Of a stretch of DNA of 64,000 nt, positions 16,431-64,000 are shown piece after piece (positions within the stretch are counted from its first letter, which is position 1; every line of letters begins with the position of its first letter). Made by a program: the position numbers and the translations under genes. The DNA is taken from the NCBI GenBank assembly GCA_964016885.1, contig OZ024742.1, forward strand, positions 119,350,001-119,414,000. The letters are read 5' to 3'. Under the pieces are notes generated by a model. It did no database searches and was not told the DNA's origin. It saw only the letters and a program-made list of their open reading frames with translations. This stretch comes from Eledone cirrhosa (taxonomy: Eukaryota).

Positions 16431-16496
16431 TATTTCATTATATATATTTCGGGGATATCATATTAACAATATGCTATGCCTTCATCAGACAAAATA
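16431..16496 (-). ncRNA. Type-I hammerhead ribozyme motif
   Basis: UAUUUUGU CUGAUGA AGGCAUAGCAUAUU-GUU-AAUAUGAUAUCCCC GAAA UAUAUA UA AUGAAAUA; 8-bp stem I, stem II with 3 mismatches. Confidence 0.75.
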
Positions 16497-57028: not shown

Positions 57029-57510
57029 CTCTGTTCGAGATCGTTCAAAATGTTCTAATATAATTTGCCCCTAGAAACACCTAATTAACTTTTATATATA
57101 CAGCAGAAGTTGGCCTATGTACTATAATGAATTGAAAAACCTCGATTAACTGGGATTACCCATGCACAAAACGGACAAAACTTCCCTCTAGGTTCTCTTT
57201 TTTAATCTAAATCAACTAGCATTGTAGACAAAAACGAAATCAACACTTATAAGAAAGCAGATTATTGCTTCCTAATCGAATATTTTACTACAAACGTCAA
57301 CAGAAATGTATTCAAAAGCAATTATTTCCTTGTAAGAATCTAAAAGGTTTTGGGCTTGTTATCAATAACTCTAGGTATCAAAAGAAAAAGAACGTGCCCG
57401 ACAAGAGGCAATTTTTTTAAGTGTGCACAGAAAAGAACACTAATTTCTTTCAGAATTGTATCTTTTCGAATAAATTGAGATTTTCATCCTTCCAGATAAT
57501 TATTGTAGAT

Positions 57511-58310
57511 GTCTGAGGAGATCGAATGAAAACTTCAGTGTAGATTACCTACAATCGATAGTATAGATGTCTGAGGAGATCGAATGAAAACTTCAGGGTA
57601 GATTGCCTACAATCGATAGTCTGAGGAGATCGAATGAAAACTTCAGGGTAGAATGCCTACAGTCGATAGTATAGATGTCTGAGGAGATCGAATGAAAACT
57701 TCAGGGTAGATTGCCTACAATCGATAGTATAGATGTCTGAGGAGATCGAATGAAAACTTCAGGGTAGAATGCCTACAATCGATAGTATAGATGTCTGAGG
57801 AGATCGAATGAAAACTTCAGGGTAGAATGCCTACAATCGATAGTATAGATGTCTGAGGAGATCGAATGAAAACTTCAGGGTAGATTGCCTACAATCGATA
57901 GTATAGATGTCTGAGGAGATCGAATGAAAACTTCAGGGTAGAATGCCTACAATCGATAGTATAGATGTCTGAGGAGATCGAATGAAAACTTCAGGGTAGA
58001 ATGCCTACAATCGATAGTATAGATGTCTGAGGAGATCGAATGAAAACTTCAGGGTAGAATGTCTACAATCGATAGTATAGATGTCTGAGGAGATCGAATA
58101 AAAACTTCAGGATAGATTGCCTACAATCGATAGTATAGATGTCTGAGGAGATCGAATGAAAACTTCAGGGTAGATTGCCTACAATCGATAGTATAGATGT
58201 CTGAGGAGATCGAATGAAAACTTCAGGGTAGATTGCCTACAATCGATAGTATAGATGTCTGAGGAGATCGAATGAAAACTTCAGGGTAGATTGCCTATAA
58301 TCGATAGTAT
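57511..58310. repeat. Tandem array of 14 x 58-bp units (one unit of 50 bp)
   Basis: Unit gtctgaggagatcgaatgaaaacttcagggtagattgcctacaatcgatagtatagat; no unique spacers. Confidence 0.95.
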
Positions 58311-60280: not shown

Positions 60281-60342
60281 TTTTATTATATATATTTCGG
60301 AGGTACTGTGCTGTTTTTTCAGTACGTCCTCATCAGATAAAA
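60281..60342 (-). ncRNA. Type-I hammerhead ribozyme motif with intact core
   Basis: UUUUAU CUGAUGA GGA-C-GUACUG..CAGUAC-C-UCC GAAA UAUAUA UA AUAAAA in a ~170 bp insert between (TA)n tracts. Confidence 0.82.
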
Positions 60343-60404: not shown

Positions 60405-60442
<38 letters not shown>

Positions 60443-60446
<4 letters not shown>

Positions 60447-60830
60447 AAGTATGTCCATAGAATCATTTGATAAAATATATACACCATTTCCTCTCCCAAT
60501 CAGCATAATCAACCACACAAAAATCCAATTAAACCAGGCTATAAGATTAAAAGACACCTATGAAGAAATAATAGATAAATAAACGACAGCTATCTATTCG
60601 CGATCAACATGGAATATTTACCCAGCATTTCCAATAGCACGTGGGAATCGATTAAATATATCGTCAACCATACACAATTAGCTGTCGTTTATTTATCTAT
60701 TATTTCTTCATAGGTGTCTTTTAATCTTATAGCCTTGTTTAATTGTTTTTTTGTGTGTGGTTGATTATGCTGATTGGGAGAGGAAATGGTGTATATATTT
60801 TATCAAATGATTCTATGGACATACTTTATT
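60443..60830. repeat. Fold-back inverted repeat, ~150-bp arms, 86-bp structured spacer
   Basis: 60443-60592 is the reverse complement of 60679-60830. Confidence 0.9.
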
Positions 60831-62218
60831 GTATATTGCTCTGATTGTTGATTATTTAATTAATTAATTCGTCATTGAGCCACATCGTGAATGGTTGCCA
60901 AAAACATATATATATATGTCTATGACTTTCTCTAGTTTGTGTATATGTAAATCTTTATATATATATATAAATACAAATAAATATTCAGCGAGAATCGCAT
61001 TTCGGCGGGCAGGAAAAGCGAAGCGAAACGCAAAAATCAGAAATGATACTGGCAAAGTGCTCAATAGTTAAAAACCAGAGCTAAACAATGTGTTAAGAAG
61101 CCATACAAAACTGAAAAGGGGGTCAAGAAGGCATTAACCACCCAAGCCAAAAACCAAATCAAGCTAAACAGGTCAAAACAAAATAAATGATAAAAAATAT
61201 ATATATCGGAGTCCCGTAACTCCTGAGGCAGTGAGAGGGGCGCCGTATTGACATACAGCATTTCTAGGGAATTTTTTAAAACCCAGCAGAGTCCATCTCC
61301 TCTTCAAGTTTGAATACAGCAGATTTCTTCCAGAGAAAAATAAAGATTGAGAGAATTGAATGAAAATGAGATATAAAGGAAGAATCTACCTCGGTACTAG
61401 ACTGGTACTTTTTTTAGCGACCTTGAATGGATGAAAGGCAGGGTTGACCTTGGCGGGATTTGAACTCAGGGAGCGAACTATACTGCCTTTAAACTGTAAG
61501 TTGAACTTTCTCACTATTTTTACCTAGCTCAATCTATTTTTATTGTTTGCGGTACTGTATTTGTTTTCTATTTGAAAACACACTGGTTGAGTGTTTGTGG
61601 CAATAATCATATTTTTTCAATGTGATTTTGTTTGTCAACGTGTCACTGTTTAGTCAAACCTGGTTTACCTCCTCTTTGATGTGACGTCACGCGTCACTAG
61701 GGAGCTTACTGCTAACATTACTTGTTACTAACAACCGAAAGATCTTAGCACACCTTTTTGTGTCTTTCCTAAACAGAGAGGCGACCTTCCGCTGACGAAA
61801 CGACCCTACGCTGAATTACGTAATGTTTAATATCATTACTTAATAGTCTGCATATGAGTGTACATGATCGGTGCACGATCAGCAATTGGGGACCGTGGAA
61901 ACTGTTATAGTATTTCAGGTACCATATCATCTTACTCACACGAAGTCGTTCCCCTCACTGTTTAACGAAAATGTGAACTCTGGCCAACTGGGTTCGAATT
62001 TTAATAATACGAACTTAGTTTGCCATCAAGTTAGTGAGGAAATGTGGGAAGCTATGTCCGTTCTATTCGACTTGCTTCGCCTACTAATTATATATATATA
62101 ATTAATTAATTAATTATAGTATGTGTTAGTTTATCACCGACACTTTAGTATGCTGGGTAGAGCACTGGACGAATTACACATGTGGGTCTGTTTACTCCAT
62201 AGTATATTTTTATGATCA

Positions 62219-62533
62219 TGAAGTACAAATCAACAGGTTATAATTCACTCCGTTTATTTATAATCGCTGTTATATATATTTCGGTGATAACAGTTATGCA
62301 ACAGTTACCGGTGCTTTGAGAGACCAACACCAAATATCAGCCCGGAGCATATCAATGAATCAAAACAACAGAAGCAAGTTTTAGTTCTTTATGTTTTTCT
62401 GTTTTTTTTTCCTGTTCAAATTCTAGCTGTCTGATGAGGTCATAACTATTGCATAAGGGTTATCACCGAAATATATATAATAGTGATTACGAATAAACGA
62501 AGTGAATTATAACCTGTTGACTTGTTCTTCAGG
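62219..62533 (+). mobile_element. Fold-back HHR mini-element
   Basis: 62219-62307 is an inverted copy of 62443-62531. Confidence 0.78.
62426..62484 (+). ncRNA. Type-I hammerhead ribozyme motif with intact core
   Basis: GCUGU CUGAUGA GGU.AUAAC..GUUAU.ACC GAAA UAUAUA UA AUAGU; the inverted copy has perfect stem I partner ACAGC. Confidence 0.82.
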
Positions 62534-63076
62534 TTTATATATATATATATATATATAAAAGAAAATTTTCGCTCTACATGGCTGAATACAATAAATGTAA
62601 TCTGAGTTTTTCGAATATTAATAATAACATTCGATTCGTTTGCAATTATGCAAATAAGCCTCAATTTTATAGCCATGTCAGTAGAATGAACCCTTCATTC
62701 TTACTCTTGTGTTGGCATGTGAACAGAACTGCAGACACTAATGTTTCTGGGTATCACCTTTCATCAGTACAGCTCACTGTTCACCTGCCAAACTGTCAGA
62801 GCTAGTGAAAATATATGCTATTTTCAAAAATACACAGTAACTGATCGGCCTGATTTGCATATTATCAGACTGGCTGATCAGTCAGATCTGCATATTAGCA
62901 GATCCACTGATCAACCAGATTTTCATATCAGCAGACTGATCAGTGGATCTGCTAATATGCAGATCTGACTGATCAGCCAGTCTGATAATATGCAAATCAG
63001 GCCGATCAGTTACTGTGTATTTTTGAAAATAGCATATATTTTCACTAGCTCTGACAGTTTGGCAGGTGAACAGTGA

Positions 63077-63122
63077 GCTGTACTGATGAAAGGTGATACC
63101 CAGAAACATTAGTGTCTGCAGT
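63077..63122 (+). ncRNA. Minimal hammerhead motif (other copies 62728-62773 on -, 63711-63756 on +)
   Basis: GCUGUA CUGAUGA A(A/G)GGU-GAU-ACCC A GAAA CAUUAGUG UC UGCAGU; GUC cleavage triplet; A-A at the stem II base. Confidence 0.75.
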
Positions 63123-63237
63123 TCTGTTCACATCCAACACAAGAGCAAGAATGAAGGGTTCATTCTACTGATATGGCTATAAAATTGAGGCTTGTTTGCA
63201 TAATTGCAAACGAATCGAATGTTATTATTAATATTCG

Positions 63238-63425
63238 GTGGTGGATTGGCAGTATCGGTAGAGGGTCGGACGCCATGCTTTCCAGTGTAGTTACGTCCCT
63301 TTACGATCTGAGTTCAAATCCCGCCGAGGTTGACTTTGCCTTTCATCCTTACGGGGTCGATAAAATAAAGTACCAGTAATGCACTGGGTAATTGCTGGCC
63401 TTGAGCCTAAAGTAGAAACAATTAT
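63238..63425 (+). mobile_element. MetaSINE-like SINE inserted in one arm of the fold-back
   Basis: Full consensus; TSD attattaatattcg; absent from the opposite arm. Confidence 0.92.
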
Positions 63426-64000
63426 TAATATTCGAAAAACTCAGATTACATTTATTGTGTTCAGCCATGTAGAGCGAAATTTTCTTTTTTATTTGAATTT
63501 GGCAAAGCCGGCCATTTATCGCTCGTATACAGGAAACTAACTGGCCAGTCTGCTGTTATGCAAATCCGGCTGATCAGTGGATCTGCTAATATGCAGATGT
63601 GACTGATTAGCCAGTCTGATAATATGCAAATCAGGCCGATCAGTCATTATGTATCTTTGAAAATAGCATATATTTTCACTAGCTCTGACAGTTTGGCAGG
63701 TGAATAGTGAACTGTTCTGATGAAGGGTGATACCCAGAAACATTAGTGTCTGCAGTTCTGTTCACATGCCAACACAAGAGCAAGAATGAAGAGTTCATTC
63801 TACTGACATGGTTATAAAATTGAGGCTTGTTTGCATAATTGCATAATTGCATAATTGCAAACGAATAGAATGTTATTAATTGAAACCGTGGCATGAACAC
63901 AGATTACCGACGACCTAAAACACCCAGCACATATGTAGAAATAGAAACCTTCCTAGTCAATGAAAGAGCCTCTATGTCGCTCGAATTGTTAGAAATAGTA

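What the first reader, a model, noticed from the sequence alone, without database searches (positions are those of the whole stretch)
62556..63882. Three-copy inverted-plus-tandem HHR element forming a ~350-bp hairpin
Seen: one inverted and two tandem copies, each with CUGAUGA...GAAACAUUAGUGUC. Predicted cuts at 63116 and 63750 are 634 nt apart (~440 without the later SINE). The fold-back centre falls in 33-bp subrepeats containing the palindrome TGATCA. The SINE with its TSD is in one arm only, so the hairpin predates it and is unlikely to be an assembly artefact. Tandem copies would allow the dimeric HHR fold through near-palindromic ACAUUAGUGU.
Basis: partly seen in the sequence, partly recalled or inferred. 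Interest (0 to 1): 0.72.

Follow-up and report, generated by a model that had tools for sequence, protein, structure and literature searches.

The report
Penelope-type ribozyme mini-element, head-to-head insertion
This hairpin is one insertion of a small non-coding jumping repeat found thousands of times in the genome, whose copies sit head-to-head about half the time, so the layout is ordinary; the useful part is that many copies stop just after the predicted self-cutting site, which likely records the ribozyme cutting in living cells.

Summary
Observation confirmed: three type I hammerhead cores, predicted cuts at 62734(-), 63116 and 63750, arms of about 357 bp, and a SINE with a 14-bp duplication in one arm. 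The locus is one copy of a dispersed, non-coding family with a ~440-nt unit (3,890 exact matches to a 24-mer near its 3' end). The layout is routine: 109 of 201 loci have a 5'-to-5' inverted partner, with varied breakpoints. 3' ends fall in two classes about 36 nt apart and join (TA)n. This is the published Penelope-like (PLE) insertion signature, and this scan has noted PLE end-pieces with paired copies on other DNA. The arms look like two separately primed cDNAs, not a fold-back at TGATCA. No autonomous parent was found in 63 GIY-YIG loci. The possibly new point: 5' ends pile up just after the predicted cut (21 of 140 ends in 10 nt, 1 in the 17 nt upstream). The effect is strong in one sample and weak in a position-ordered sample. 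A stall of reverse transcriptase in helix I remains a rival. The SINE hits the same site in 26 of 201 loci.

The parts
62534..62556 (.). (TA)n target tract at the left end of the insertion; it ends a different hammerhead-bearing repeat
   Evidence: sequence; 234 of 269 family 3' ends have (TA)3 beside them
62557..62938 (-). Copy 1, inverted arm, m61 to m442; ends at the family's long 3' end
62734..62767 (-). Hammerhead core of copy 1, C17 at 62734; helix II shortened by a G-to-A change
62914..62938 (.). 5'-to-5' junction and 23-nt spacer in the 33-bp subrepeats; 3-nt overlap between m61 and m85
62936..63488 (+). Copy 2, m85 to m442, interrupted by the SINE
63066..63131 (+). Type I hammerhead of copy 2: helix I 8+7 bp with a 2-nt bulge, core 63083-63116, predicted cut after 63116
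63238..63420 (+). SINE inserted at m374, with a 14-bp duplication at 63224-63237 and 63421-63434
   Evidence: same site in 26 of 201 loci
63455..63488 (+). 'Tail' between the family's two 3' ends (about m406 and m442), inferred to be two reverse-transcription start sites
   Evidence: 124 and 145 of 377 segments end in these two classes
63489..63880 (+). Copy 3, m1 to about m377, in seamless tandem with copy 2; 8-bp triplication at 63831-63859; joins unique DNA
   Evidence: contigs of X2 and X3 match 63851-64000 with 0 differences
63700..63765 (+). Type I hammerhead of copy 3, core 63717-63750, predicted cut after 63750; U.U mismatch at the first pair of helix I

Best explanation
This is one insertion of a dispersed, non-coding, hammerhead-bearing repeat family with a ~440-nt unit, likely mobilised by a Penelope-like (PLE) retrotransposon, and its hairpin is the family's usual head-to-head pair. 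Inferred steps: a PLE protein from elsewhere in the genome (most likely Neptune-type) nicks both strands of a (TA)n tract. Each nick primes reverse transcription at one of two internal sites of a partial-tandem RNA. The two cDNAs are joined at their far ends through 0-8 nt of shared sequence. A cDNA likely stops where the hammerhead has cut the RNA, and reads through where it has not. Here one cDNA made copy 1 and the other read through two uncut hammerheads to make copies 3 and 2. A SINE landed later, and the inner 197 bp of the arms were probably homogenised afterwards.
For: Shown: 3,890 exact matches to a 3' 24-mer and 912 to the 39-nt hammerhead stretch, 0 in reversed controls. 109 of 201 loci have an inverted junction, 32 of 60 in a position-ordered sample. 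In the first 66 junctions the breakpoints differ and 50 overlap by 0-8 nt. 269 of 377 segments end in two classes about 36 nt apart; 234 of these 269 lie beside (TA)3. One arm often carries the tail that the other lacks (L013, L020, L024), so it was not copied from the other arm. The G/T marker at m307 agrees between arms in 30 of 39 comparisons, 51% expected. An open 938-aa frame with RT, a CxxxxCxxC linker and GIY-YIG exists in the genome (L093), and fragments of another such family also lie head-to-head (L171). 5' ends: in samples A+B, 21 of 140 ends lie in m266-275 (840 nt at risk) against 1 in m246-262 (1,182 nt), Fisher 1e-7; the best 10-nt window of 442 starts at m265; 41 of 111 segments that reach m289 end in m263-288. 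Literature: partial tandem, adjacent inverted truncated copy and 30-40-bp tail are the PLE norm (PMC8557442, passages); a PLE protein cuts and extends both strands and starts at two internal sites (PMC11167929, parts 1-2 of 4).
Against: No autonomous element sharing this sequence was found in 63 of the 150 scored GIY-YIG hits (10,597 candidates), so the partner is inferred from the insertion signature only. The pile-up is weak in the position-ordered sample B alone: 6 of 75 ends in m266-275, 2 at m263-264, p=0.02, and m160-169 scores as well there. The pile-up (m266-288) covers the 3' strand of extended helix I, so a stall could mimic it. Only 40 of 109 inverted pairs show (TA)4 at both mapped outer ends, 54 at one and 15 at none. 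In this window copy 3 has an unusual 3' end. Arm homogenisation is not a family trend (76 pairs, spacer against divergence rho -0.12, p=0.3). The family hammerhead has A.A at the base of helix II and the single motif is predicted to misfold (-21.4 against -14.1 kcal/mol). In the anole PLE, cleavage was not needed in vitro and no RNA reads ended at the cut (PMC11167929).
Confidence: 0.82

Rival explanations
1. The 5' pile-up is not a record of cleavage: reverse transcriptase stalls in extended helix I, or transcription starts near m266.
For: The pile-up spans m266-288, which is the 3' strand of a predicted -28 kcal/mol helix. Two or three ends map to m263-264. The effect is weak in sample B. 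The start-site idea came from scan note e1-9933925.
Against: A hairpin of like strength (-26 kcal/mol) gives only 5.2 ends per 1,000 nt on its 3' strand against 18.0 (A+B, p=0.008). Ends are denser next to the cut than at the helix base (25.0 against 13.6 per 1,000, p=0.07 in A+B; p=0.018 in all loci), the reverse of what a stall at entry predicts. The edge coincides with the cut: six ends at m266 in all loci.
Confidence: 0.3
2. Classic non-LTR retrozyme cycle: the hammerheads release a monomer that is circularised and copied more than once round the circle, giving the tandem.
For: The cut-to-cut RNA is strongly folded (z -8.2, 0 of 100 shuffles). Tandem units share non-majority variants at 6.1 per kb against 0.77 between loci. 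m134A is in all three window copies and in none of 64 other units. The model is that of PMC7229834 (discussion read).
Against: No run reaches two full units in 201 loci (longest continuous match 734 nt). Ends at the cut need a linear RNA. The two views can both hold if linear and circular RNA coexist.
Confidence: 0.25
3. The hairpin arose by fold-back: the nascent or integrated copy 2 primed on itself at the TGATCA palindromes.
For: The arms are 99% alike here (3 of 287). The junction lies in the subrepeats. Ends at m84-101 are somewhat raised (13.3 per 1,000 in A+B).
Against: Copy 1 ends at the family's 3' end on (TA)n, whereas copy 2 runs on into copy 3, so a copy of copy 2 would not stop there. 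Family arms differ by 5.5-6.0%, like unrelated loci at 5.3%. Differences rise away from the centre (0 of 197 against 7 of 162, p=0.004), which fits later conversion.
Confidence: 0.1
4. A MITE or foldback DNA transposon with long terminal inverted repeats, or an assembly artefact.
For: Long near-perfect arms. No listed short-read contig covers the centre 62924-62930 (the tool says a hole proves nothing).
Against: Centres and arm lengths differ from locus to locus and 92 of 201 loci have no mapped inverted partner. The arms differ distally and by the SINE. The right junction is present in short-read contigs, which may come from the same sample as the assembly.
Confidence: 0.04

Closest known systems
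Insertion structure of endonuclease-positive Penelope-like elements (Craig et al. 2021, PMC8557442; passages read)
   Same: 5' truncation, partial tandem, adjacent inverted truncated copy, 30-40-bp optional tail, microsatellite targets, hammerhead in the repeat. That paper also reports putative non-autonomous Chlamys elements with pLTRs.
   Different: No ORF here, and no sequence match to any sampled autonomous family.
Non-LTR retrozymes (Cervera and de la Pena 2020, PMC7229834, passages and discussion; Li et al. 2026, 10.64898/2026.07.22.740005, parts 1-3 of 5)
   Same: Non-coding unit of a few hundred nt, one type I hammerhead per unit, strongly folded monomer, proposed PLE partner; a mismatch at the base of helix II is also reported for axolotl HHR_Amex2 (U.U).
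   Different: Dispersed partial tandems under two units with frequent inverted partners, not dimer-to-multimer arrays; circular RNA not shown.
Poseidon element of Anolis, PAc (Frangieh et al. 2024, PMC11167929; parts 1-2 of 4)
   Same: Two internal start sites that define a tail; AT-rich targets; both strands cut and extended.
   Different: There, hammerhead cleavage was dispensable in vitro and no reads ended at the cut; here genomic 5' ends cluster after the cut.
PLE hammerheads (Cervera and de la Pena 2014, PMC4209133; parts 1-2 of 4)
   Same: Type I motif, extra nucleotide after position 9, palindromic helix III able to dimerise; opposite-strand pairs 100-700 bp apart were noted there.
   Different: This motif has a long helix I and a 3-bp helix III, so it is not a minimal hammerhead, and it has an extra A before G12.

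Membership tests
Autonomous EN+ PLE | ORF with RT and GIY-YIG | tested here: not met
   No PLE-like frame in the unit; six-frame comparison with 63 GIY-YIG loci gave chance hits only
PLE-mobilised non-autonomous element | Partial tandem with 5' truncation | tested here: met
PLE-mobilised non-autonomous element | Adjacent inverted 5'-truncated copy | tested here: met
   109 of 201 loci
PLE-mobilised non-autonomous element | Optional 30-40-bp tail (two 3' ends) | tested here: met
   124 and 145 of 377 segments, about m406 and m442
PLE-mobilised non-autonomous element | (TA)n target bias | tested here: met
   234 of 269 family 3' ends
PLE-mobilised non-autonomous element | Sequence shared with an autonomous pLTR | tested here: inconclusive
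   None in 63 of 150 scored GIY-YIG hits, out of 10,597 candidates
Non-LTR retrozyme | Type I hammerhead in each tandem unit | tested here: met
Non-LTR retrozyme | Tandem arrays of two or more full units | tested here: not met
   Longest continuous match 734 nt in 201 loci; some loci, this one included, hold two hammerheads in under two units
Non-LTR retrozyme | Expression as circular RNA | not testable with these tools
   No run on record as RNA was listed
Type I hammerhead ribozyme | Conserved core CUGANGA, GAAA, UH | tested here: met
   Majority base in at least 95% of about 80 units at each core column
Type I hammerhead ribozyme | Helices I, II and III | tested here: met
   Helix I 8+7 bp, II 3 bp in the family majority (2 in copies 1 and 2), III 3 bp
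Type I hammerhead ribozyme | G10.1-C11.1 closing pair next to G12 | tested here: not met
   A.A at the base of helix II in nearly all units
Type I hammerhead ribozyme | Covariation in the helices | not tested
   Copies are about 95% alike, too close to inform; no covariation count was run
Type I hammerhead ribozyme | Self-cleavage | not testable with these tools
   Indirect only: 5' ends pile up after the cut
MITE or foldback transposon | Fixed termini and a fixed internal structure | tested here: not met

The most novel reading that the evidence does not exclude
The genomic copies of this family are a fossil record that a PLE-type hammerhead cuts its RNA in vivo: roughly a quarter to a half of cDNAs that reach the site stop there. 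Together with the two outer priming sites, they show that the PLE inverted repeat is built from two target-primed cDNAs joined head to head.
Probability: 0.55. Interest if true: 0.55.

Novelty: new member of a known kind. Interest (0 to 1): 0.36.

Why it matters
The locus itself is ordinary. The family is a good test bed. Whether PLE hammerheads cut in vivo is described as unclear (PMC8557442, passage; PMC4209133, discussion), and one in vitro study found the cut dispensable (PMC11167929). Thousands of young copies let the question be asked by counting 5' ends, and they give a short RNA for assays of cleavage and of two-ended priming. The SINE hot spot also shows that this family is a preferred landing site for another retroelement.

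Tried and rejected
Rfam: no hammerhead family among 36 matches. Autonomous partner: none in 63 GIY-YIG loci; four of them hold the element nearby but not as the PLE's own repeat. A 24-nt antisense likeness to one GIY-YIG gene (E 0.15) was rejected as chance. SINE as a passenger of one subfamily: rejected, because duplication lengths and SINE 5' ends differ between loci. Conversion between arms as a family rule: rejected. RNA polymerase III: an A-box-like 12-mer (consensus recalled) lies at 63500-63511, but no B box was seen by eye and T5/T4 runs lie inside the unit, so this was set aside. A pile-up at exactly one lap of a circle: not significant. Expression: no RNA holder listed. Contigs of X1-X4 cannot show expression; no listed contig covers the fold-back centre. 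Literature: six searches; their listings showed no report of this family or of PLE 5' ends at the hammerhead cut, and one search returned 0 papers. Subscription papers, Repbase and Dfam were not searchable, and supplements were not read, so the family may be catalogued there. Two searches used a cephalopod host as a term; that guess is recalled from the SINE's look and was not tested. PMC13282606 (passages) has no occurrence of 'ribozyme'. Scan notes by sequence and by nearby place returned nothing.

Full report
Check of the observation. The three copies, their hammerhead cores, the cut positions (62734 on the minus strand, 63116, 63750), the 634-nt spacing, the 33-bp subrepeats and the one-armed SINE with a 14-bp duplication are all present. 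The arms pair over about 357 bp around a 23-nt spacer. Each hammerhead in the window carries a change from the family majority that is predicted to weaken it: helix II in copies 1 and 2, the first pair of helix I in copy 3. Positions 'm' refer to one natural 442-nt unit, L021:1341-1782; C17 is m265.

The family. The own genome (3.0 Gb) holds 3,890 exact matches to a 24-mer near the 3' end and 912 to the 39-nt hammerhead stretch, with 0 in reversed controls. These are lower bounds on copy number, since units differ by a median 5.3%. I fetched loci in seven ways. I dropped 13 as duplicates (one of them, L080, a near-identical copy of L079 at another place) and one flank without the element; 201 loci with the element remained. 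The junction between units is family-wide: the query across it gave 2,273 candidates, and the 40 scored matched over nearly its whole length. No continuous match reaches two units; the longest is 734 nt.

3' ends and target. Of 377 segments, 124 end at m399-423 and 145 at m426-15; 40 end at m366-394, around the SINE site, and 68 elsewhere. Of the 269 in the two main classes, 234 lie beside (TA)3. By eye the two ends are about m406 and m442. That gap matches the 30-40-bp PLE tail (PMC8557442, passages), which in the anole element is the distance between two internal start sites of reverse transcription (PMC11167929, parts 1-2).

The inverted partner is routine. It is present at 109 of 201 loci and at 32 of 60 loci taken in chromosome order. 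In the first 66 junctions, breakpoints were spread over the unit and 50 overlapped by 0-8 nt. One arm often has the tail that the other lacks, so it cannot be a copy of the other arm. The m307 marker agrees between arms in 30 of 39 comparisons, so both arms mostly come from the same kind of RNA. I infer two primings, one from each strand of the cut target, with the cDNAs joined at their far ends. A PLE protein that cuts and extends both strands is shown in PMC11167929. Against this, only 40 of 109 pairs show (TA)4 at both mapped outer ends; interrupted arms may explain part of that, which I did not count.

This locus. Copy 1 runs from the long 3' end on (TA)n to m61. Copies 3 and 2 form one run of about 730 nt from near m377 to m85. 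m134A is in all three copies and in none of 64 other units, so they share one source. The arms differ at 3 of 287 columns, against 5.5-6.0% in the family, with none in the inner 197 nt and 7 in the outer 162 (p=0.004). Later conversion is the simplest reading, but it is not a family trend (76 pairs, rho -0.12), and polishing of the assembly cannot be excluded for that detail. Short-read contigs hold the right junction with no difference; none listed covers the centre.

5' ends and the ribozyme. I counted only segments with a family 3' end, longer than 60 nt, and not cut by a SINE or a locus edge. In sample A (loci from the 3'-anchored searches), 15 of 65 ends lie in m266-275 and none in m246-262. 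In sample B (chromosome order) 6 of 75 lie in m266-275, 2 at m263-264 and 1 in m246-262 (p=0.02), and another window scores as well. Pooled, it is 21 of 140 against 1, and the best of 442 windows starts at m265 (Poisson 2e-8). Of 111 segments that reach m289, 41 end in m263-288. A stall in helix I is the main rival, because the raised zone matches that helix's 3' strand. However, an equally strong hairpin elsewhere shows no such excess (5.2 against 18.0 per 1,000 nt), and ends are denser at the cut than at the helix base. I put in vivo cleavage at about 0.65. The single hammerhead is predicted to misfold, with the core pairing to helix III, while the helix III self-duplex is -8.8 kcal/mol.

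The SINE. All SINE copies seen end in the same few bases followed by ATT-like sequence (52 copies). It abuts m374 in 26 of 201 loci and one other position once, with differing duplications and 5' ends, so these are separate insertions at a hot spot.

Partner. The genome has many RT-GIY-YIG families, including an open 938-aa frame with the zinc-finger-like linker that PMC8557442 gives for Neptune and Nematis (L093). One family has its hammerhead about 170 nt before a (TA)n-joined end, similar to the 141 and 177 nt here. No sequence match to this unit was found in 63 loci, so the partner is unassigned.

Verdict. A new member of a known kind: a non-autonomous PLE-type, retrozyme-like family. It fails the array test for a classic retrozyme and has no ORF. 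The three-copy hairpin is the known PLE signature. Similar PLE end-pieces with paired copies were noted by this scan on other DNA (unchecked notes). What may be new is the 5'-end record of cleavage, which my six paper searches did not show but which needs a genome-wide count and an RNA test.

Noticed in passing
m374 of the unit; window 63238-63420: The SINE abuts this one site in 26 of 201 loci (9 of 60 in chromosome order), with different duplications; the site lies in a small predicted hairpin.
   Followed up: partly
window 62203-62547, 60287-60336, 60437-60836, 16439-16488: Other repeat families in the window: type I hammerhead cores with an AT-repeat helix III at 62431(+), 60336(-) and 16488(-), and two more inverted pairs.
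   Followed up: no
window 57506-58310: 58-bp tandem array, 14 copies, 95% matches.
   Followed up: no
L093:2809-5622 (-): Open 938-aa frame with RT, CxxxxCxxC linker and GIY-YIG; a candidate helper protein.
   Followed up: partly
L016 and L025: The same inverted junction (m273/m119, 7-nt overlap) on two chromosomes with different outer ends; recurrent joining or a copied junction.
   Followed up: no
m428-m10 of the unit; window about 63475-63500: A second, weaker cluster of 5' ends at the U-rich unit junction (13 ends in 1,374 nt at risk), just upstream of an A-box-like 12-mer at 63500-63511.
   Followed up: partly
L171 and L091:3853-3943: Fragments of an autonomous-type PLE family also lie head to head, showing the same architecture.
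   Followed up: partly
run X4, record 32: A 321-nt contig matches 63706-63819 at about 87%, apparently with G at hammerhead position 15.1; the kind of run is not on record.
   Followed up: no
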